Below are positions 4,720-34,101 of a stretch of DNA of 35,688 bases, piece after piece. Numbering within the stretch: the stretch's first letter is position 1; the number at the start of each line of letters is the position of its first letter. Origin of the DNA: Acidimicrobiia bacterium. Lineage in GTDB: Bacteria; Actinomycetota; Acidimicrobiia; Spongiisociales; UBA5794. Below the pieces are notes generated by a model. That model saw only the letters and a list, made by a program, of their open reading frames with translations, ran no database searches and was not told where the DNA came from. The position numbers and the translations under genes are program-made. The DNA lies in contig JAUVNV010000002.1 in the NCBI GenBank assembly GCA_030599515.1, positions 1-35,688 on the forward strand. Reading direction: 5' to 3'.

Positions 4720-4763
4720 CCGTTCACGTGTTTCATGTCACACCCTCCTGTCATATTGGAGAC

Positions 4764-6038
4764 ATGTTGGATGTGATGGTTGATGACACGATCAGCGAAG
4801 CGGTTGCCTCCCAAACCAGCGGTGTCCCGGCGGGTCTCGACGAGATGGAACCGGGCCCGTTCCTCGGCATCGTGCTGTCCGGCATCGACATCGGTCGGCT
4901 CCGTGGCACCGACCGGGTCACCGTGTTGAAGGCGCGGCAGCGTATGGCGTCGCACTACACGGCGGAGACGTATGAGGCGATGGCGTCGATCGTCGACGCC
5001 TACCAGGAGGAGGAACACCAGGACTATGAGGGAGCAGCCGACGGCGCCGCCTATGAACTGCGTGCTGCGCTGCAGCTCACCCGCAGGGCCGCGGACGTCG
5101 AGTTGTCGTTCGCCCTTGACCTGCGCGATCGCCTCCCAAGGGTCGCCGGCGCCCTGTCGTCCGGTGTGATCGACCAGCGCAGAGCCCGCACCATCGTCTG
5201 GCAGACGACGCACCTCGACGACGACACCGCCCGCTTGGTCACGGACCGGATCATCGACGACGCACCCCACCTGACGACCGGCCAACTCATCGCCCGGATC
5301 CGCAAGCTCGCCATCACGGTCGACCCCGACACCGCCCAACGCCGCTACGACCAGGCCATCGCGGATCGCAGAGTCGTCATCGAACCAACCGACGACGGCA
5401 CCGCCAACCTCTGCGCCTTCGACCTCCCACCCGACCGGGCCATCGCAGCCAGACAACACATAGACCGTCTCGCCAGCAGCCTCCGAGGGCCCGACGAGTC
5501 ACGCAGCATGGACCAGCTCAGAGCCGACGTCTACGTCGACCTGCTCTGCGGAAGAACCGTCTCCGGCAAGGGCGGCGTCGTCGACATCCGCGTCGACCTC
5601 GAAACCCTCATGGGACTCGCCGCCAGCCCAGGGGAACTCGCCGGCTACGGCCCCGTCGTCGACGACATCACCCGCCACATCATCGCGGACCACACCGGAG
5701 CCGAATGGCGCTACACCGTCACCCACAACGGTCACCCGGTGGCGACCGGCACGACACGCCGCAGACCCACCACCGGCCAACGCCGCGTCGTTGAAGCCAG
5801 ACACGACACCTGCATCTTCCCCGGTTGCCGCATACCCGCCACCGAATGCGACCTCGATCACCGCATCGAATGGTCGAAGAGCCACAGGACCGACACCTGC
5901 GACCTCGGCCCGTTCTGCCGCCACGACCACGGAGGCAGACACGAACACGGATGGACCTACCAGTACCTCCCCAACGGCGACATCGAATGGACCAGCCCCC
6001 TCGGCCACACCTACACCACCCACAACCGAGACCCCTGA
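4764..6038 (+). CDS. DUF222 / HNH endonuclease domain protein (REP13E12-like family)
   Basis: The N-terminal region is typical of actinobacterial DUF222 proteins (EMEPGPFLGIVLSGIDIGRLRGTDRVTVLKARQRMASH). The C-terminal HNH/Cys-rich block reads CIFPGCRIPATECDLDHRIEWSKSHRTDTCDLGPFCRHDH. The start is uncertain: ATG 4764 after GGAGAC, or ATG 4728. Confidence 0.85.
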   Translation: MLDVMVDDTISEAVASQTSGVPAGLDEMEPGPFLGIVLSGIDIGRLRGTDRVTVLKARQRMASHYTAETYEAMASIVDAYQEEEHQDYEGAADGAAYELRAALQLTRRAADVELSFALDLRDRLPRVAGALSSGVIDQRRARTIVWQTTHLDDDTARLVTDRIIDDAPHLTTGQLIARIRKLAITVDPDTAQRRYDQAIADRRVVIEPTDDGTANLCAFDLPPDRAIAARQHIDRLASSLRGPDESRSMDQLRADVYVDLLCGRTVSGKGGVVDIRVDLETLMGLAASPGELAGYGPVVDDITRHIIADHTGAEWRYTVTHNGHPVATGTTRRRPTTGQRRVVEARHDTCIFPGCRIPATECDLDHRIEWSKSHRTDTCDLGPFCRHDHGGRHEHGWTYQYLPNGDIEWTSPLGHTYTTHNRDP

Positions 6039-6050
6039 ACCCCCTCGACG

Positions 6051-6141
6051 ACAGACCACAGATCACAGCGGACAGCCACCGAACCATGTCTCACGGCCGG
6101 CGACCGGGTACTCGATACTCGGTACCCAATACTCAGTACTG
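6051..6141. repeat. Heptanucleotide tandem array, 13 units in one register
   Basis: Units: acagacc acagatc acagcgg acagcca ccgaacc atgtctc acggccg gcgaccg ggtactc gatactc ggtaccc aatactc agtactg. The array fills the convergent HNH/recR spacer. Confidence 0.85.
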
Positions 6142-6157
6142 ACCAGCGGCGCCGGTC

Positions 6158-6751
6158 CTACATCTCCAAGCGTCCCGACAGCGCTCGACCGAGCGTGATC
6201 TCGTCGGCGTAGTCGAGGTCGCCGCCGACCGGTAGACCGGAAGCGAGTCTCGTGACGGTGACACCGAGCGGCTTCAACATCCGGGCGAGGAGCATCGCCG
6301 TCGCATCTCCTTCGAGCGTTGGATTCGCCGCGACGATGACCTCCGTGATGTTCTCCGCGCCGACCCTGTCGACGAGTTCTTTCGCTCTGAGCTGATCCGA
6401 ACCGATCCCCTCGATCGGAGATATCGCACCTCCGAGGACGTGGTAGCGGCCGCTGAACTCCCCGGTCTTCTCGATCACCGGGATGTCCTGAGCACGCTCG
6501 ACGACGCACACGACCGACGTGTCACGCCGTAGATCACGACAGATCGAACACTCCTCTTCTGCAGTGACGTTGTAGCAACGAGAGCACAGCCGGACCTCGC
6601 GCCGCATCGACGTGATCGCGTCGGCGAGCCGGACCGCGTCGGCTTCCTCTGCGTTGAGGAGATGGAACGCGAGCCGCTGCGCGCTCTTCCGACCGATACC
6701 CGGAAGCCGGGCCAGTTCGTCGACGAGGCGCTGGACCGGCGGTTCGAACAT
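6158..6751 (-). CDS. recR: Recombination protein RecR
   Basis: N-terminal HhH ([20 protein letters not shown]), a C4 zinc finger ([12 protein letters not shown]) and a Toprim domain. The ATG overlaps the ybaB stop (TGATG). Confidence 0.95.
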
Positions 6752-7080
6752 CAGCCGAGCAGACCGCCGAGATCCATCCCGCCTGCGACGTCTCCCATCG
6801 AGCCTGCTGCATCCTCCGACGCTGCCAAGAGCGCCTGGTTGACGGCCGCGACGACGAGATCTCCGGCCATCTCCGGATCATCGGGGTCGAGGATCGACGG
6901 CTCGAAGTCGACCGAGACGAGTTCTCCCGATCCCCGTACGACTGCCTTCACCACGCCACCGCCGGCGGTTCCCTCGTACGTCTTCGCGGAGAGTTCGGCC
7001 TGTGCGGCCTCGATCTGCGCCTGCATCTGCTGCGCCTGCTGCATCAACTGGCGCATATCGTTCGGCATTCGTTGTGACAT
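6751..7080 (-). CDS. ybaB: Nucleoid-associated protein YbaB/EbfC
   Basis: 109 aa. [51 protein letters not shown] is the typical YbaB fold signature. The gene lies immediately upstream of recR. Confidence 0.9.
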
Positions 7081-7087
7081 GGCTTGA

Positions 7088-7093
7088 AGGGTA
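7088..7093 (-). promoter_or_regulatory. Candidate -10 box TACCCT for ybaB-recR, 7 nt upstream of ATG (leaderless geometry)
   Basis: The minus strand reads gTACCCTtcaagccATG. It fits the actinobacterial TANNNT -10 consensus. No SD is present. Confidence 0.35.
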
Positions 7094-7221
7094 CTGAGTA
7101 CTGAGTACTGAGTGCCCGGTGCCCGGTATCCGGTATCCGGTATCCGGTAGTTCGCAGTTCTTGAAGCTTGCAGCTTGTGGCTTGCAGCTCTCGTCTTTCT
7201 ACTTTCTACTTTCTACTTCTC

Positions 7222-7227
7222 TACTCT
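7222..7227 (+). promoter_or_regulatory. Candidate -10 box TACTCT for dnaX, 8 nt upstream of ATG (leaderless or near-leaderless geometry)
   Basis: Reads cTACTCTtcggcccaATG. There is no SD between the box and the ATG. The box lies inside a heptamer unit. Confidence 0.35.
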
Positions 7228-7235
7228 TCGGCCCA

Positions 7236-9074
7236 ATGACTCGCTACCAAGCTCTCTATCGAAAGTACCGGCCGCAGCGCTTCGATGAGGTGATCGGACA
7301 GGATCACGTGATCGGAACCCTCACCAGGGAGGTCACGGACGAGAAGGTCGCCCATGCCTACCTCTTCGCGGGGCCCCGCGGAACAGGGAAGACGACGACG
7401 GCCCGCCTTCTCGCGAAGTCGCTCAACTGCACCAACCGCACGACGGGCGCCGAACCCTGCAACGAGTGCGCCTCGTGCGCCGGCATCACCGAGGGGACGT
7501 CGCTCGACGTCATCGAACTCGACGCGGCGTCGCACAACAAGGTCGAGGACGTCCGGGAGATCCGTGTCAACGTGGGAACGGTCGCCGCCGCAGAAGGCGC
7601 CCGCCGGATCTACATCCTGGATGAGGCCCACATGCTCTCGCGTGCTGCAGGAAACGCTCTCCTCAAGACGCTTGAGGAACCGCCCGAGCACGTCGTATTC
7701 GTGCTCGCCACGACCGAGCCGTACAAGCTGCTCGACACGATCCGGAGCCGATCACAGAGGTTCGACTTCCATCCGGTGTCGTCGGAGACCCTCATCGGGT
7801 ACCTCGCAGAGATCTCGAAGCGCGAAGGGTTCACAGCGGATCATGCCGGCCTCTCGATGATCGCCACCCACGCCCGTGGATCGGTCCGGGACTCGATGAG
7901 CCTGCTCGAGCAGGTCGCCGCGTTGGGGGACGGCACCGTCTCGTCGGAGGGCGTCACCCGGGCTCTGGGACTGGCGGATGACGAGGCTTTCACTGGACTG
8001 GTGGCCGCTATCGCCGATCAGGACGCACCCGCGGCGCTCGGACTCGTCGCCCAGCTCGCTTCGCGCGGCGCCGACCTGCGACGGTTCGTCGCCGACGCAC
8101 TCGGCTTCTTCCGCGGCATTTTCCTCGCCCAGTACGCGCCGAACCTCGAGGAGATCACCGACGAACCGCCCGAGATCCTCGACGAGTGGCGCCGGATGGC
8201 GAAGGTCGTGCCGTCATCCGACGTGTTGCGCGCCATCGACCTGTTCTCCGAAGCACTCCTGCATCTCCGACAGGGCCGCGAGGAGCGACTCATGCTCGAG
8301 TTGGCGGTGATCCGCCTGACCCGACCGGAGACGACGGTCGATGCCGAGGCGCTCGCGGTACGAATGGACCGGTTGGAGCGAGACGTGAAGGTCGGAGCCC
8401 CCAGATACCAGCCGCCGGCTGCCAGCCCGACGAAGGAGACAGGAGACGGGGGACAGGAGAAAAGAGACAGCCCGAAGGAGGCGACAGGCCACAGGCGACG
8501 GGCAACAGGCGAGATCCAAGACGAGATGACGGACAGCCGACAGCCGACGGCCGACAGCGGCGAGCCGGAGCAAGTCGAGGTCGAAGAACCAACGGCGAGC
8601 GATTCAGTACCGACTACCGACTACCGACTACCGACTACCGACGGTGGACCCGGCGAAGCCGGATCCACCGTCACTCTTGCCGACTTCTCTGCGGCTTGGC
8701 CGGTTGTCGTCTCGCGCATCCGATCGGACTTCGGTGCTCGCCGGCACGCTTTCGTGAAAGTTGCCGAACCGCGATCGGTCGAGGGTTCGGTCGCCGTACT
8801 CACGATGCCTTCGCACCAGCACTTCCATCTCGAGCAGTTGAACGCCGACGAACAACTGCGAGGCGCCCTCGAAGCCATCACCGCCGAGATCCTCGGTTGC
8901 ACGGTCACGCTCCAGTTCCGCTCTGACGACGACCAGGTGCCGGCAGAGATGGAGACCGGAGACGAGTTGCCGCTCCGAGCACCCGAGAAGGATGATCTCG
9001 CTGAGGGCGAGGACCCCGAGGATCCCGCCGATATGGTCGCCGACCTCCTCGGCGGGAAGATCGTCGAGGAGTAG
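7236..9074 (+). CDS. dnaX: DNA polymerase III subunit gamma/tau
   Basis: YRKYRPQRFDEVIGQDHV, Walker A GPRGTGKTT, a Zn module (CTNRTTGAEPCNECASC), DEAHML and the sensor motifs are present. A low-complexity linker and an actinobacterial-type C-terminal domain follow. Start set at ATG 7236; the upstream ORF extension reads through the repeat array. Confidence 0.93.
   Translation: MTRYQALYRKYRPQRFDEVIGQDHVIGTLTREVTDEKVAHAYLFAGPRGTGKTTTARLLAKSLNCTNRTTGAEPCNECASCAGITEGTSLDVIELDAASHNKVEDVREIRVNVGTVAAAEGARRIYILDEAHMLSRAAGNALLKTLEEPPEHVVFVLATTEPYKLLDTIRSRSQRFDFHPVSSETLIGYLAEISKREGFTADHAGLSMIATHARGSVRDSMSLLEQVAALGDGTVSSEGVTRALGLADDEAFTGLVAAIADQDAPAALGLVAQLASRGADLRRFVADALGFFRGIFLAQYAPNLEEITDEPPEILDEWRRMAKVVPSSDVLRAIDLFSEALLHLRQGREERLMLELAVIRLTRPETTVDAEALAVRMDRLERDVKVGAPRYQPPAASPTKETGDGGQEKRDSPKEATGHRRRATGEIQDEMTDSRQPTADSGEPEQVEVEEPTASDSVPTTDYRLPTTDGGPGEAGSTVTLADFSAAWPVVVSRIRSDFGARRHAFVKVAEPRSVEGSVAVLTMPSHQHFHLEQLNADEQLRGALEAITAEILGCTVTLQFRSDDDQVPAEMETGDELPLRAPEKDDLAEGEDPEDPADMVADLLGGKIVEE
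8438..8640. repeat. Heptanucleotide array (29 units, single register) embedded in the dnaX linker coding region
   Basis: Units: gacagga gacgggg gacagga gaaaaga gacagcc cgaagga ggcgaca ggccaca ggcgacg ggcaaca ggcgaga tccaaga cgagatg acggaca gccgaca gccgacg gccgaca gcggcga gccggag caagtcg aggtcga agaacca acggcga gcgattc agtaccg actaccg x4. Confidence 0.85.
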
Positions 9075-9076
9075 GG

Positions 9077-9625
9077 GTGCGACTCGGGATCGACCTCGAC
9101 GGTGTCGTCGCCGACTTCAGTACGGGTTGGGTGAACCGCTACAACGACGAATTCGGATCGAACGTCAGCACCGACCAGGTGGACTCGTGGGACGCGATGG
9201 ACCACCTGACCCACTTCGAATCGAAGGGGGCCTTCTGGCGCTGGGCGGCCAGAGGCGTCCACGGGTCCGTGTTCCGGCACCTCGAGACCTACCCGGGTGC
9301 CCTCGAGGCGCTCGGCAGACTGAGCAAGGGTCACGAGGTCGTGATCATCACCGCGAAACCCGATTGGGCGGTGCACGACACGTTCGCCTGGATCGCAGAC
9401 CGGCGCATCCCGGCCCGCGAAGTCCATATCACTGAATCCAAATGGCAGATCCCTTGTGACGTCTACCTGGACGATTCCCCTCGCCAGATCGCCGAACTCC
9501 ACACCAACCGACCCGAGGCGATGGTGTGCCGCTACGTCCGCCCGTGGAACGAATCCGTTCCCGGCACCACGGATGTTCACGGCTGGGCCGAGTTCGAGAC
9601 GCTCGTCAACGCTCGCCGGCGATGA
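9077..9625 (+). CDS. HAD-superfamily 5'(3')-deoxyribonucleotidase-like protein (NT5C family)
   Basis: The N-terminal DxDxV motif (GIDLDGVVADF) and overall length fit PF06941-type nucleotidases. The GTG start is 2 nt after the dnaX stop, with GAGGAG just upstream. Confidence 0.7.
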   Translation: MRLGIDLDGVVADFSTGWVNRYNDEFGSNVSTDQVDSWDAMDHLTHFESKGAFWRWAARGVHGSVFRHLETYPGALEALGRLSKGHEVVIITAKPDWAVHDTFAWIADRRIPAREVHITESKWQIPCDVYLDDSPRQIAELHTNRPEAMVCRYVRPWNESVPGTTDVHGWAEFETLVNARRR

Positions 9626-16726: not shown

Positions 16727-16742
16727 GTAGTCCGTAGTCCGT
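16727..16742. repeat. Short heptamer repeat (gtagtcc x2) in the convergent M23/coiled-coil spacer
   Basis: Reads gcagtagtccgtagtccgt. The reverse complement (ggactac) occurs in the 23683-23794 array. Confidence 0.6.
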
Positions 16743-16755
16743 GAACACTGTCTCG

Positions 16756-17205
16756 TCAGGCGATGAAGGCGAGCAGCGCCGCGAAGATGGCTGCGAGCGC
16801 GGTCATGCCACCGATCATGGTCACCGTGTAGGTTCGCAACTGATCGCGAATGACGTCCTGGAGGCCGTACATGCGATCGTCCATCGTCTCGAACCGCCGG
16901 TCCATTCGATCGAAACGCTGATCGACCTGCTCAAACCGCTGATCGACCTGCTCAAACCGCTGATCCACCTGCTCAAACCGCTGATCAACGAGATGGAACC
17001 GTCCGTCGATGGCGTCGAACCGGGCGCCGAGCAGTTCTTCGAGACGGTCGAATCGCCGCTCCAGCACGGCGACATCCGATCTCGTCGCCATCCGGGCCCC
17101 CGGTTCGGCTGGTAGGTACGTCATGAGCGTGTCGGCGTGTTCGTGACCGAGCACCTCCTCAAGACGAGCATACAGGGCACCGGCATCAGAGATGGGAGTG
17201 GACAT
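16756..17205 (-). CDS. Tail-anchored coiled-coil protein with 7-aa tandem repeats (DQRFEQV)
   Basis: ATG 17205 is preceded by AAAGGAG. The protein carries RFDRLEE / DGRFHLV / DQRFEQV x3 / DQRFDRM / DRRFETM repeats and a C-terminal TM segment (MIGGMTALAAIFAALLAFIA). Confidence 0.6.
   Translation of the reverse strand: MSTPISDAGALYARLEEVLGHEHADTLMTYLPAEPGARMATRSDVAVLERRFDRLEELLGARFDAIDGRFHLVDQRFEQVDQRFEQVDQRFEQVDQRFDRMDRRFETMDDRMYGLQDVIRDQLRTYTVTMIGGMTALAAIFAALLAFIA
16897..17001. repeat. 21-nt tandem repeats inside the coiled-coil gene (3 near-identical central units plus degenerate flanking units)
   Basis: ctgatcgacctgctcaaaccg occurs at 16918-16938 and 16939-16959. A copy with one substitution is at 16960-16980, and degenerate copies lie on both sides. 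Confidence 0.9.
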
Positions 17206-17267
17206 GGCGACTCCTTTCTGGTCCACGCCATAGTGTCATGCGCCTGCGACAGATTCTCGGCACTTGT

Positions 17268-17309
17268 GTCTTGCGTCTTGTGTCTTGCGTCTTGCTACTC
17301 AGCTACTCA
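17268..17309. repeat. Heptanucleotide array (6 units) in a divergent spacer
   Basis: Units: gtcttgc gtcttgt gtcttgc gtcttgc tactcag ctactca. Confidence 0.85.
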
Positions 17310-22335: not shown

Positions 22336-23664
22336 GTGCCTTCAATGAACGTCACAGTTGTTCCCACTCCCGGCCTGGGAGACTCCACCTACGTCTTCGA
22401 GCACGACGGCATCGGCTTGATCGTCGATCCGCAGCGCGACATCGATCGGTTCGTCGAGGCTGCGTCTCATCTCGACACACGATTCGTGCTCGAGACCCAC
22501 CTCCACAACGACTACGTGTCGGGGGGTAGGGCCGTTGCCGCAGCCACCGGTGCCGAACTCGTCATTCCGGCGTCTGCAGGTGTCGCGTTCAACCACCTGC
22601 CCGCCTTCCACAACGAAGAACTCCACGGAGGCCCGTTCACCGTCCGTCCGATCCACACGCCCGGTCACACACCGGAGCATGTGAGCTACCTCGTGCTCGT
22701 CGACGACGAAGCCGTGGCCCTTTTCTCCGGTGGCAGTCTCCTCGTCGGATCAGCCGGACGCACGGATCTTCTCGGCATCGACCGGGCCGACCAACTCGCC
22801 CGCCTCCAATACGGGTCGGTCACCCGCCTCGCAGCGTTGCCGGACCGTGTCTCCCTCTACCCCACACATGGAGCGGGGTCGTTCTGCACGGCGTCCGTCG
22901 CCGAGACCGATACATCGTCGATCGGTCTCGAGAAGCGATCGAACCCGGTGCTCGGACACTCTTCGGAGGACTCCTTCGTTGCAGAAGCCCTCTCCGGCCT
23001 TCAGCCGTATCCGGACTACTACGCGTACATGGCCCCGATCAACCTCGCCGGACCAGAACCGATTCCGAAGGTTCCGATTCCGTCCCTGAACGTCGACGAA
23101 GTCCCCGACGATGCCTTCCTTCTCGACATCCGGCCCCATGCCGACTACGCAGCCGGGCACCTCCCCGATTCGTACGGCCTTGAACTCGAGGATCAGATGG
23201 GTGTCTGGGCCGGGTGGCTCGTGCCATTCAATGAGCCGATTGTGCTCGTCGCCAACGGAGGGCAGGACGTCGAGAATGCCGTGACCCAGTTGGCTCGTGT
23301 CGGCTACGACCGCGTGATCGGCGTCGTCGACGACCTCACCGACCGCGAGGATCTCAGGAGCTACCGCCTTGCTCCGATCGCCGACTTCGTAGCGGAGATT
23401 CGTCTCGATTCACCACAGATCCTCGATGTTCGAGCGCCCGGAGAGTGGGCCGCCGGCTCGATCCGGCACTCGATCCACACCTACGTGCCGGACCTTCGCG
23501 ATGGGCTTCCAGAGGCTCTCGACCCACAACGACCGGTATGGATCATCTGCGGTGGTGGCTACCGGTCGGAGATGGCCGTGCGCTACCTGGAAGCGCGCGG
23601 GTTCCAACCCACCGTCGTGGTCGGCGGAGGCGTGGAGGACGTTCTGGCTGCGCTCGCTGTGTGA
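22336..23664 (+). CDS. MBL-fold hydrolase fused to two rhodanese-like domains (CstB / persulfide dioxygenase-sulfurtransferase-like architecture)
   Basis: The N-terminal metallo-beta-lactamase fold has THLHNDYVSGG (HxHxDY rather than HxHxDH) and TPGHTPEH. The C-terminal rhodanese-like region ends with a CGGGYRS active-site-like loop. An alternative start is ATG 22345. Confidence 0.8.
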   Translation: MPSMNVTVVPTPGLGDSTYVFEHDGIGLIVDPQRDIDRFVEAASHLDTRFVLETHLHNDYVSGGRAVAAATGAELVIPASAGVAFNHLPAFHNEELHGGPFTVRPIHTPGHTPEHVSYLVLVDDEAVALFSGGSLLVGSAGRTDLLGIDRADQLARLQYGSVTRLAALPDRVSLYPTHGAGSFCTASVAETDTSSIGLEKRSNPVLGHSSEDSFVAEALSGLQPYPDYYAYMAPINLAGPEPIPKVPIPSLNVDEVPDDAFLLDIRPHADYAAGHLPDSYGLELEDQMGVWAGWLVPFNEPIVLVANGGQDVENAVTQLARVGYDRVIGVVDDLTDREDLRSYRLAPIADFVAEIRLDSPQILDVRAPGEWAAGSIRHSIHTYVPDLRDGLPEALDPQRPVWIICGGGYRSEMAVRYLEARGFQPTVVVGGGVEDVLAALAV

Positions 23665-23682
23665 GAGAGCAGGGGACGGGCT

Positions 23683-23794
23683 GCAAGTAGAAAGTAGAAA
23701 GACCGGAATCGGACTACGGACCCGACTACGGGATACCGGATACCGAGTACCGAGTACCGATTACCGAGTACCGATTACCGATTACCGATTACCG
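23683..23794. repeat. Heptanucleotide array, 16 units in a single register
   Basis: Units: gcaagta gaaagta gaaagac cggaatc ggactac ggacccg actacgg gataccg gataccg agtaccg agtaccg attaccg agtaccg attaccg attaccg attaccg. The array overlaps the last codons of the protease gene. Confidence 0.95.
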
Positions 23795-24236
23795 ACAATT
23801 CAGCAAAGACCATCTCTACCACCTCATCAACTGCGGCGTCGACTTCGGGGCTCAGATTCACTCCCGGTTCGACTTTCCCGATCTCGATCCCGAAGACGAC
23901 CAACTCGTCGGGCAACATGTCGACGGCACCACCCAGGTCGATGGCTTCGACGACGCCGATGAGATGGGTCGATGCCGAGCGCCACGAGGATGGGAATCCC
24001 CCCTTCCCGTCGATACGATGAATCGAGCCGGGAACGCCACCCGAGACCACGGCGTCGACGACGACGGCCAGCCTGGCGTCGCGCCACGTGTCGAGAAGAT
24101 GTGTGGCATCCCCGACCGATTCGACCAGGGCAACCGACTCCGGAGGTCGGCCGGCGAGCCGGTCGATCACGACCGGCCCCGCAGCGTCGTCCCCCATCAT
24201 CCGGTTCCCGACCCCGATCACGACGACGTCAGCCAC
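23775..24236 (-). CDS. Hydrogenase maturation endopeptidase
   Basis: [23 protein letters not shown] is the typical HycI/HoxW-family N-terminus. The gene overlaps the large-subunit stop by 8 nt and starts with GTG. Confidence 0.8.
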
Positions 24237-34027: not shown

Positions 34028-34101
34028 GCGGGTGTAGTTCAATGGCAGAACATCAGCTTCCCAAGCTGAATACGGGAGTTCGATTCTCCTCACCCGCTCC
34101 A
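34028..34101 (+). tRNA. tRNA-Gly (anticodon CCC), CCA encoded
   Basis: A cloverleaf can be read directly. Acceptor GCGGGTG/CACCCGC, D stem GTTC/GAAC, anticodon stem TCAGC/GCTGA with loop TTCCCAA, T stem GGGAG/CTCCT with loop TTCGATT, then TCCA. Confidence 0.93.

What the first reader, a model, noticed from the sequence alone, without database searches (positions are those of the whole stretch)
7081..7234. The whole 155-bp ybaB/dnaX divergent spacer consists of 22 in-register heptamers
From the base after the ybaB start codon (7080) to one base before the dnaX ATG (7236), every nucleotide belongs to one 7-nt register. Two divergent promoters for essential replication/recombination genes must therefore sit inside repeat units. 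No conventional unique promoter sequence, SD or operator is present.
Basis: seen in the sequence. Interest (0 to 1): 0.7.

Follow-up and report, generated by a model that had tools for sequence, protein, structure and literature searches.

The report
Heptamer microsatellite filling a promoter spacer
The DNA between ybaB and dnaX in this Acidimicrobiia bacterium really is a chain of 7-base repeats, but it is a fast-slipping microsatellite of an already described kind, lying between two ordinary leaderless promoters rather than replacing them.

Summary
Lag-7 self-identity of the 155-nt spacer is 0.67 against 0.26 background (z = 11), and about 19 of 22 units share one register. One 8-nt unit and two weak joints break strict regularity.

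Both genes keep a conventional actinobacterial -10 hexamer at leaderless distance from the start codon: TACCCT 7 nt before ybaB and TACTCT 8 nt before dnaX. TACNNT sits at that position before dnaX in 22/22 related genomes. This explains the missing Shine-Dalgarno sequence.

Relatives with the same divergent gene order but no repeats manage with 58-118 nt of unique spacer.

Same-species contigs differ from the window by whole 7-nt units in every intergenic array (-1 and +1 unit in this spacer). They show no unit changes in the arrays inside dnaX.

The window holds six more heptamer loci. One, at 23.7 kb, is an inverted, collinear paralogue of the spacer.

Best reading: an STRR-like heptanucleotide simple-sequence repeat that grows and shrinks by replication slippage and acts as near-neutral filler upstream of two leaderless promoters. 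It is a new member of a known but unexplained kind. Interest is moderate.

The parts
7081..7235 (.). ybaB/dnaX divergent spacer: a composite heptanucleotide array of about 21 units in five or six blocks
   Evidence: Lag-7 identity 0.67, z = 11.3. TRF period-7 arrays. Unit parse.
7089..7123 (.). Block GGGTACT / GAGTACT x2, morphing through GAGTGCC and CGGTGCC. The AGTACT core is self-complementary.
   Evidence: Hairpin potential in the DNA fold.
7124..7158 (.). Block CGGTATC x3, then CGGTAGT and TCGCAGT. Strain L081 has one CGGTATC unit fewer.
7159..7193 (.). Block TCTTGAA GCTTGCA GCTTGTG GCTTGCA GCTCTCG (CTTG family). The unit GCTTGAA at 7082-7088 belongs to the same family and lies exactly 11 units upstream.
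   Evidence: A similar CTTGYGT array lies at 17263-17295.
7194..7229 (+). Block TCTTTCT ACTTTCT x2, then the 8-nt unit ACTTCTCT and ACTCTTC. Read as TACTTT x3, TACTTC, TACTCT, it is a run of -10-like boxes ending in the real one. Strain L081 has one extra unit.
7222..7227 (+). Predicted dnaX -10 hexamer TACTCT, 8 nt before the ATG at 7236 (leaderless-type promoter)
   Evidence: TACNNT lies at the same offset in 22/22 relatives. PMC3160421.
7088..7093 (-). Predicted ybaB -10 hexamer TACCCT, 7 nt before the ATG (complement of 7078-7080)
   Evidence: TACCCT/TACGCT/TAATCT lies 6-7 nt before the ATG in 9/9 loci with a divergent ybaB.
6751..7080 (-). ybaB (YbaB/EbfC family), 109 aa, overlapping the recR start by one base
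   Evidence: Pfam PF02575, E = 9e-30.
6158..6751 (-). recR
   Evidence: Pfam RecR domains.
7236..9074 (+). dnaX (tau), 612 aa
   Evidence: Pfam DNA_pol3_delta2, gamma3 and DnaX_C.
23665..23807 (-). Paralogous composite heptamer array, inverted relative to the spacer. Its blocks are in the same order: (CGGTAMT)n, CGGTATC x2, CCGTAGT, ..., TCTTTCTACTTTCTACTT.
   Evidence: Alignment. Local score 57 against at most 30.5 for arrays from other genomes. Strain indels of +7 and -14 nt.
6039..6142 (.). Heptamer arrays downstream of recR (GACCACA type and GTACTCR type). Positions 6097-6139 form a 43-nt, 77% inverted repeat with 7091-7133.
   Evidence: One unit is missing in L081.
8434..8642 (+). Four heptamer blocks inside dnaX that encode the tau linker (aa 399-473). 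(TACCGAC)5 is the reverse complement of the spacer unit CGGTAGT.
   Evidence: No unit indels in three strains.
17252..17309 (.). Heptamer array (CTTGYGT)n followed by GCTACTCA x2, in another divergent gap
   Evidence: One unit is missing in L090.

Best explanation
The spacer is a composite heptanucleotide microsatellite. It is a long simple-sequence repeat of the kind first described as STRR in cyanobacteria.

How it forms. New blocks arise when a mutated unit is itself duplicated. The tract gains and loses whole 7-nt units, most likely by replication slippage, which is why successive blocks stay in one register.

Where the promoters are. The tract lies between two ordinary actinobacterial leaderless promoters. 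Their -10 hexamers (TACCCT for ybaB, TACTCT for dnaX) occupy the two outer ends, 7-8 nt from the start codons.

What the repeats do. They fill the unconstrained DNA upstream of both -10 boxes and are not needed for promoter activity. Unit gain or loss changes only the distance between the two promoters, not the geometry from each -10 to its ATG.

Wider setting. The tract is one member of a dispersed family of related arrays that populate weakly constrained DNA in this genome and in a patchy subset of Acidimicrobiia.

Status of each step.
- Shown: the periodicity, the whole-unit polymorphism, the conservation of the -10 hexamers, the repeat-free relatives, and the paralogy of the arrays.
- Inferred: leaderless transcription, near-neutrality, and slippage as the physical process.
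For: Periodicity.
- It is specific to 7 nt. 138 sliding windows pass the threshold at lag 7, against 0-3 at other lags (lag 14, the harmonic, aside).

Strain variation.
- Same-species contigs (98.8-99.9% identical) differ from the window only by indels of 7, 14 or 21 nt.
- In this spacer: -CCGGTAT and +CTTTCTA. Elsewhere: -7 at 6057, -7 at about 17268-17290, and +7 and -14 in the 23.7-kb array.
- The arrays inside dnaX show no unit change, as expected if frameshifts there are removed by selection.

Location.
- Arrays cover about 10% of intergenic bases but 0.6% of coding bases.

Promoters.
- The -10 hexamers are conserved at a fixed distance from the start codons in relatives with and without repeats.
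- This matches the leaderless signature described in PMC3160421 and PMC6448022.

Relatives.
- Repeat-free relatives with the same gene order have spacers of 58-118 nt.
- Arrays occur in a patchy set of lineages on a DnaX tree.

Array family.
- Three of the spacer unit types recur exactly elsewhere in the window, against 0.17 expected (P < 0.0005).
- The spacer is collinear with the array at 23.7 kb.

Literature.
- Heptamers are the most over-represented long simple-sequence repeats in many bacteria. They are mostly intergenic, vary in length between close relatives, and have no assigned function. Polymerase slippage is the proposed cause (PMC4679880; PMC4692102).
Against: - No transcription start sites or expression data exist, so leaderless initiation and neutrality are inferences.
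- Slippage alone explains neither why the period is 7 nor why the same unit families recur at several loci. Some copying between loci, or some sequence preference, must be added.
- The block next to dnaX consists of -10-like TACTTT boxes, and the block next to ybaB resembles its -10. The arrays are therefore not sequence-independent of the promoters.
- In the window, arrays occur only in gaps where gene orientation switches: 5 of 9 such gaps against 0 of 9 co-directional gaps. Pure neutrality does not predict this.
Confidence: 0.7

Rival explanations
1. Regulatory tuning or contingency locus. Unit number in the arrays sets the strength or coupling of the two divergent promoters. It could do so through the spacing and helical phase between them, through -35/UP-like contacts, or through extra -10-like start sites. 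Slippage would then give heritable expression variants of dnaX and ybaB-recR.
For: - Unit number in this very spacer differs between near-identical strains.
- The block next to dnaX offers three to four extra TACTTT boxes at 7-nt steps.
- The arrays increase the distance between the two -10 boxes from about 30 nt (L010) to 128 nt.
Against: - The observed changes fall in perfect blocks upstream of the -10. The sequence and spacing from the -10 out to the distal end of the block stay identical.
- No tract lies between a -35 and a -10, or in the 5' coding region, as it does in classical phase-variable genes.
- dnaX is an essential housekeeping gene.
- Relatives do without any repeats.
- Identical array types sit in convergent gaps that have no promoters.
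Confidence: 0.12
2. Binding-site array. The heptamers are iterated sites for a factor that reads nucleic acid with a 7-nt step, or for a nucleoid protein such as YbaB itself. A cold-shock-domain protein on single strands is one candidate, as proposed for the TAACTGA repeats.
For: - The period is strictly 7 nt.
- Unit families (CGGTANN/NTACYNN, CTTGNNN, TCTACTT) recur at several loci in both orientations.
- CGGTATC/CGGTAGT arrays also occur in unrelated metagenomic organisms.
- CspB is reported to bind one protein per heptamer (PMC4679880).
Against: - Unit sequences differ widely within one tract and between genomes.
- Arrays occur in coding DNA, in convergent gaps and in divergent gaps alike.
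- No conserved core is shared by all blocks.
- Only 5 hits in 241 million contigs is compatible with chance among many heptamer arrays.
Confidence: 0.07
3. Recombinogenic dispersed element. The arrays are copies of a spreading repeat that provides homology for inversions and other rearrangements. The spacer would be an inversion junction rather than a locally grown tract.
For: - The spacer is an inverted, collinear paralogue of the 23.7-kb array.
- A 43-nt inverted repeat (77%) brackets recR-ybaB.
- Relatives differ by an inversion of dnaX alone, and L013 has ybaB-recR in the opposite orientation.
- In the window, arrays lie only at strand-switch gaps.
Against: - No inverted repeats flank dnaX in the window or in five relatives.
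- All same-species contigs have the same arrangement.
- The longest perfect matches between arrays are only 15-19 nt.
- L013 and L019 carry arrays in co-directional gaps.
- The GAGTACT unit is nearly self-complementary, which inflates the inverted-repeat score.
Confidence: 0.08
4. Assembly or sequencing artefact.
For: - Repeats of this kind break short-read assemblies. The Logan contig L083 ends inside the spacer at window position 7224.
Against: - The same tract, with unit-level differences, was recovered in three independent assemblies from two sources.
- Similar arrays occur in many unrelated MAGs.
Confidence: 0.01

Closest known systems
Heptanucleotide long simple-sequence repeats (LSSR) of prokaryotes (Mrazek, Guo & Shah 2007, as summarised in PMC4679880 and PMC4692102)
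   Same: - Tandem 7-nt units far longer than chance.
- Mostly intergenic.
- Patchy across taxa, Actinobacteria included.
- Length variation between close relatives.
- No known function, with polymerase slippage as the proposed cause.
   Different: - Here several different unit types are chained in one register and fill almost an entire divergent promoter spacer.
- The lineage (Acidimicrobiia) has not been reported in the literature I could search.
Cyanobacterial STRR (short tandemly repeated repetitive heptamers; Calothrix and Nostoc). Basis: my own knowledge of Mazel et al. 1990 plus the mention in PMC4692102.
   Same: - Heptamer arrays whose unit families recur at many loci in both orientations.
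- Mixed blocks of different heptamers next to each other.
- Function unknown.
   Different: - The units differ: CCCCAGT, TTGGTCA and CAACAGT are absent as tandems.
- The phylum differs.
- Recurrence here is shown for only 35 kb.
TAACTGA direct repeats of marine Beggiatoaceae, cyanobacteria and Bacteroidetes (PMC4679880)
   Same: - Intergenic heptamer direct repeats, often directly upstream of start codons.
- Mixed with other heptamers in some genomes.
- Patchy phylogenetic distribution.
   Different: - That system has one dominant unit, and TAACTGA never occurs in tandem here.
- Those repeats are proposed to act in 5' UTRs. Here the genes appear leaderless, so the arrays would not be transcribed from the adjacent promoters.
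G-rich heptamer repeats of Xanthomonas (GGGAATC) and Nostoc (GGGGAYT) (PMC4692102)
   Same: - Intergenic heptameric repeats.
[quoted passage not shown]
- Occasional inverted pairs.
   Different: Those units can form G-quadruplexes. The units here have no G-runs.
Phase-variable (contingency) promoter repeats of Haemophilus, Neisseria and Moraxella (PMC12721329; examples in PMC4679880)
   Same: A slippage-prone tract in a promoter region, with strain-to-strain variation in unit number.
   Different: - Those tracts have 1-5-nt units placed between -35 and -10, in the 5' UTR or in the ORF, so that a change in copy number switches expression.
- Here the units are 7 nt and lie upstream of the -10.
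- The genes are housekeeping genes.

Membership tests
Heptanucleotide long simple-sequence repeats (LSSR) | Head-to-tail copies of a 7-nt unit, longer than chance allows | tested here: met
   TRF arrays. Lag-7 identity 0.67, z = 11.3.
Heptanucleotide long simple-sequence repeats (LSSR) | Preferentially intergenic | tested here: met
   263 of 2727 intergenic nt lie in arrays, against 184 of about 33,000 coding nt.
Heptanucleotide long simple-sequence repeats (LSSR) | Unit-number polymorphism between close strains (slippage behaviour) | tested here: met
   Six whole-unit events at four intergenic loci, and no indel of any other size in these loci.
Cyanobacterial STRR | The same heptamer families dispersed at multiple loci of one genome | tested here: met
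   Three exact unit coincidences against 0.17 expected. The spacer is collinear with the 23.7-kb array. Only 35.7 kb was examined.
Cyanobacterial STRR | Canonical units (CCCCAGT, TTGGTCA, CAACAGT) in a cyanobacterial genome | tested here: not met
   No tandem copies of these units. The organism is an Acidimicrobiia bacterium.
TAACTGA repeat system | Tandem TAACTGA units | tested here: not met
   Two single copies and no tandem copy in the window.
G-quadruplex heptamer repeats (GGGAATC / GGGGAYT) | Units carrying G-runs in tandem | tested here: not met
   None in tandem. The unit list has no G3+ runs apart from GGGTACT.
Phase-variable promoter repeats (contingency loci) | Tract placed so that a change in unit number alters -35/-10 spacing, the 5' UTR or the reading frame | tested here: not met
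   The observed +1 and -1 unit changes lie in perfect blocks upstream of the conserved -10. The distance from the -10 to the ATG is unchanged.
Phase-variable promoter repeats (contingency loci) | Expression switches with unit number | not testable with these tools
   Needs reporter or transcript measurements.
Leaderless actinobacterial promoter | TANNNT with its first T about 12 nt upstream of the start codon, conserved in orthologues | tested here: met
   dnaX: TACNNT at -15 to -12 in 22/22 loci, counting L008 from its GTG start. ybaB: 9/9 divergent loci. Criterion taken from PMC3160421.
Leaderless actinobacterial promoter | No Shine-Dalgarno sequence, and an ATG or GTG at the 5' end | tested here: met
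   The upstream sequences are ...tcggcccaATG and ...tcaagccATG, with no GGAG-like motif.
Leaderless actinobacterial promoter | Transcription start at or within 5 nt of the start codon | not testable with these tools
   Needs 5' RACE or dRNA-seq.
SARP/OmpR-type heptameric direct-repeat operators | Heptamers repeated with an 11-nt period overlapping the -35 | tested here: not met
   Lag-11 identity in the spacer is 0.27, which is background. The period is 7. The family definition comes from my own knowledge.

The most novel reading that the evidence does not exclude
The heptamer arrays are not passive filler. They would be a concertedly evolving, dispersed repeat family that copies itself between loci. 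It would carry or overwrite -10-like TACNNT boxes, so that it can seed or replace leaderless promoters. It would mark strand-switch junctions where inversions occur, such as the flip of dnaX or of ybaB-recR seen among relatives. On this reading the arrays are a genome-architecture element specific to some Acidimicrobiia. A corollary is that slippage in the arrays inside dnaX could yield a 428-aa gamma-like clamp-loader subunit.
Probability: 0.1. Interest if true: 0.65.

Novelty: new member of a known kind. Interest (0 to 1): 0.4.

Why it matters
- It is a clean natural example of how far promoters of essential genes tolerate a hypermutable microsatellite. The only conserved parts are about 15 nt at each end, and everything between can be replaced by slipping heptamers.
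- It extends the unexplained excess of heptamer repeats to Acidimicrobiia, a poorly studied and mostly uncultured lineage. There is direct strain-level evidence of whole-unit turnover and of copying between loci.
- It offers material for asking why the period is 7.
- It has practical consequences. These tracts break short-read contigs (L083 ends in the spacer). They mislead start-codon calling at leaderless genes: JGI called ybaB four codons short. They even encode part of the tau linker.

Tried and rejected
- Sigma-70 consensus and intrinsic-terminator scans of 5900-7400 found nothing. This is uninformative for an actinobacterial TANNNT promoter that lacks a -35.
- Rfam at gathering thresholds found only a tRNA at 34028-34098 and no RNA family in or near the spacer.
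- Single-strand DNA folding of the spacer gave weak hairpins in the GAGTACT and CCGGTAT blocks: z = -2.25 on the plus strand and -0.9 on the minus strand. This is not a convincing structure.
- The exact-protein look-up of YbaB, the rhodanese protein and HycI found nothing on record. RecR, the ABC ATPase, NT5C and the NiFe hydrogenase subunit worked.
- The metagenome scan for the junction CGGTATCCGGTATCCSGTAGT was meant to find more strains or more family members. It returned only 5 contigs, all from unrelated organisms.
- An inverted-repeat search around dnaX in the window and five relatives, testing an invertible-switch idea, found no flanking repeats.
- Known heptamer systems (TAACTGA, the STRR units, the G-rich units) are absent as tandems.
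- An 11-nt-period operator reading is rejected by the lag profile.
- The idea that the arrays were born purely from the local -10 boxes is rejected as a full explanation, because the same blocks occur in a convergent gap at 23.7 kb.
- Mrazek et al. 2007 could not be read in the library. It is cited only through PMC4679880 and PMC4692102.

Full report
**Observation**

The window comes from an Acidimicrobiia (Actinomycetota) bacterium with about 64% G+C. The best DnaX matches among 185,579 species genomes are uncultured Acidimicrobiaceae/Acidimicrobiia MAGs at 76-79% identity.

Pfam confirms recR (6158-6751, minus strand), ybaB (6751-7080, minus strand) and dnaX (7236-9074, plus strand). The spacer is 7081-7235 (155 nt).

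- Its lag-7 self-identity is 0.67, against 0.26 for the window as a whole.
- Lag 14 gives 0.53, and the other lags are at background.
- Shuffles give z = 11.3, and no other 155-nt stretch of the window is more 7-periodic.

Read from 7082, the units pass step by step from one type to the next, and most neighbours share 4-7 of 7 bases:
- GAGTACT
- then GAGTGCC and CGGTGCC
- then CGGTATC
- then CGGTAGT and TCGCAGT
- then the GCTTGCA type
- then ACTTTCT

Two joints share only 2/7 bases. One 8-nt unit (7215-7222) shifts the register by +1. The last 6 nt are unique.

**Not a peculiarity of this spacer**

Only lag 7 (and its harmonic at 14) yields arrays anywhere in the window: 138 qualifying sliding windows, against 0-3 for the other lags.

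Further heptamer arrays lie at these positions:
- 6047-6142, downstream of recR
- 8434-8642, inside dnaX
- 16727-16742
- 17252-17309
- 23685-23807

Arrays cover about 10% of intergenic bases and 0.6% of coding bases. The coding share comes entirely from the DnaX linker and the last codons of hycI.

**Turnover between strains**

Exact-protein look-ups recovered contigs of the same species from three JGI metagenomes and one Logan assembly. They are 98.8-99.9% identical to the window (alignments).

In about 29 kb of pairwise alignment, the indels are:
- whole heptamer units (7 or 14 nt) in intergenic arrays
- 21-nt units in a coding repeat
- one 105-nt in-frame deletion in ybaB
- a net-zero 3-nt patch in the DUF222 gene

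Unit changes relative to the window:

| Position | Strain contig | Change |
|---|---|---|
| Spacer | L081 | loses one CCGGTAT |
| Spacer | L081 | gains one CTTTCTA |
| 6057 | L081 | -1 unit |
| about 17268-17290 | L090 | -1 unit |
| 23.7-kb array | L094 | +1 and -2 units |

The four blocks inside dnaX show only point differences. This is expected if a 7-nt change there is a lethal frameshift. These results show directly that the tracts evolve by whole-unit gain and loss. That in turn explains why consecutive blocks keep one register.

**Promoters**

I aligned the region upstream of dnaX in the window and 21 Acidimicrobiia loci. A TACNNT hexamer starts 12-15 nt before the start codon in all 22, counting L008 from its GTG start. 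This holds whether or not the genome has repeats. In the window the hexamer is TACTCT at 7222-7227, 8 nt before the ATG.

For ybaB, all nine loci with a divergent ybaB carry TACCCT, TACGCT or TAATCT 6-7 nt before the ATG. In the window this is the complement of 7088-7093.

TANNNT about 12 nt upstream of the start codon is the published hallmark of leaderless genes, which make up roughly a fifth of actinobacterial genes (PMC3160421). In M. smegmatis, TANNNT is the SigA -10, and DNA-metabolism genes are enriched among leaderless transcripts (PMC6448022).

The absence of a Shine-Dalgarno sequence is therefore expected and not anomalous. The genome does use Shine-Dalgarno sites elsewhere, for example AAGGAG before the ATG at 17205.

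The claim that no conventional promoter element exists is wrong.

**Relatives**

Among loci with the same divergent arrangement:
- L001, L002, L008, L010 and L015 have non-repetitive spacers of 58-118 nt, with lag-7 identity 0.22-0.33.
- L022, L011 and L007 have heptamer-rich spacers of 88-377 nt, built from entirely different units.

Array-bearing genomes (window, L007, L011, L013, L019, L020, L022) are scattered among array-free ones on a DnaX neighbour-joining tree. The repeats are therefore dispensable for promoter function, gained and lost repeatedly, and not conserved in sequence.

**Relationship between arrays**

Sixteen block units occur in the window. Three of the spacer units have an exact counterpart elsewhere, allowing rotation and reverse complement. 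The expectation is 0.17 (P < 0.0005).

The spacer read on the plus strand is collinear with 23660-23820 read on the minus strand. Both run through (NGGTAMT)n, CGGTATC x2-3, CSGTAGT and then TCTTTCTACTTTCTACTT. The local alignment score is 57, against at most 30.5 for heptamer arrays from other genomes.

A 43-nt inverted repeat (77%) links 6097-6139 and 7091-7133 and brackets recR-ybaB. The near-palindromic GAGTACT unit inflates that score.

(TACCGAC)5 inside dnaX is the reverse complement of the spacer unit CGGTAGT.

The arrays therefore form a family. Pure local slippage is not the whole story, and some copying or gene conversion between loci is implied. The convergent gap at 23.7 kb needs no promoter, so the shared blocks are not intrinsically promoter elements.

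The -10 regions nevertheless resemble their neighbouring units:
- At dnaX, TACTCT follows TACTTT x3.
- At ybaB, GTACCCT lies next to GTACTCA x3.
- L007 independently has GGTACTY repeats beside its ybaB -10.

**Mechanism and function**

I commit to the following reading. The spacer is a composite heptanucleotide simple-sequence repeat maintained by replication slippage. It acts as near-neutral filler between two conventional leaderless promoters. Confidence is 0.7.

The rivals are set out with their evidence in the report sections:
- Regulatory tuning by unit number (0.12).
- Periodic binding sites (0.07).
- A recombinogenic dispersed element (0.08).
- Artefact (0.01).

The recombination idea draws on gene-order variation. 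Relatives differ by an inversion of dnaX alone, and L013 carries ybaB-recR in the other orientation. However, no inverted repeats flank dnaX, and all same-species contigs share one arrangement.

**Comparison with what is known**

Heptamers are the most over-represented long simple-sequence repeats in many prokaryotes. They are mostly intergenic and phylogenetically patchy, Actinobacteria included. They have been attributed to polymerase slippage, possibly because about 7 nt contact the polymerase. No function has been established (Mrazek et al. 2007, as summarised in PMC4679880, and PMC4692102).

Cyanobacterial STRRs, the TAACTGA repeats and the G-rich heptamers of Xanthomonas and Nostoc are specific instances. 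None of their units occurs in tandem here. I found no paper that mentions heptamer repeats in Acidimicrobiia.

The locus is therefore a new member of a known, still unexplained kind. Its distinguishing features are the chaining of several unit types in one register, its position between the promoters of two housekeeping operons, and direct evidence of strain-level turnover.

**Verdict**

The feature is real and statistically overwhelming. It is mechanistically ordinary as far as the evidence goes, so interest is moderate (0.4). The main open questions are why the period is 7 and how unit families spread between loci. This locus illustrates those questions but does not settle them.

Noticed in passing
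window 8434-8642 (dnaX codons about 399-473): The whole tau linker between domain III and the C-terminal domain is encoded by four heptamer blocks: AGGAGAC, AGGCGAC, GACAGCC and TACCGAC x5. The ORF stays open, and three strains show no unit indels. Deleting one unit from either of the first two blocks would give a 428-aa gamma-like product. The DnaX linker of L013 is also heptamer-encoded, whereas array-free relatives have Pro/Ala-rich linkers of 43-130 aa.
   Followed up: partly
window 6158-9625, compared with L001-L022: Gene order around dnaX differs among related Acidimicrobiia by an inversion of dnaX alone. One form is NT5C(-)|dnaX(+)-ybaB(+)-recR(+). The other is recR(-)-ybaB(-)|dnaX(+)-NT5C(+). 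L013 has ybaB(+)-recR(+)-dnaX(+). The forms interleave on a DnaX tree. No inverted repeats flanking dnaX were found.
   Followed up: partly
window 6097-6139 and 7091-7133: A 43-nt inverted repeat (77%), made of heptamer arrays that run from NNACCGG-type to GTACTCN-type units, brackets the recR-ybaB pair exactly.
   Followed up: partly
window, all 18 intergenic gaps: Arrays lie in 5 of 9 gaps where gene orientation switches and in none of 9 co-directional gaps (Fisher test about 0.015). L013 and L019 do carry arrays in co-directional gaps.
   Followed up: partly
window 23775-23807 (3' end of hycI, minus strand): The hydrogenase maturation protease gene runs into the 23.7-kb heptamer array. Its last roughly 10 codons and its TAA stop codon are supplied by GGTAATC-type units.
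   Followed up: no
window 16888-17001, in gene 16756-17205 (minus strand): A 21-nt coding tandem repeat (CGCTGATCGACCTGCTCAAAC) in a hypothetical protein varies between strains. The product is 142, 149 or 156 aa.
   Followed up: partly
L082 (JGI 3300040954), corresponding to window 6808-6911: One same-species contig lacks 105 nt (35 codons, in frame) inside ybaB. This is either a real deletion allele or an assembly error.
   Followed up: no
window 7066-7080; L081 and L083 gene calls: The JGI and Logan pipelines called ybaB 4 codons short (105 aa). The -10 hexamer, conserved at a fixed distance from the first ATG, supports the 109-aa leaderless start.
   Followed up: yes
L085-L089 (metagenome contigs): CGGTATC/CGGTAGT-type heptamer arrays occur in unrelated organisms (G+C 0.51-0.69). 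Some form inverted pairs (L088, L089). One abuts the ATG of an MreD-like ORF.
   Followed up: no
window 4728-6038: A DUF222-family gene lies between the inositol monophosphatase gene and recR. It is the most SNP-dense stretch between strains: about 34 of the 52-58 differences across 6.6 kb.
   Followed up: no
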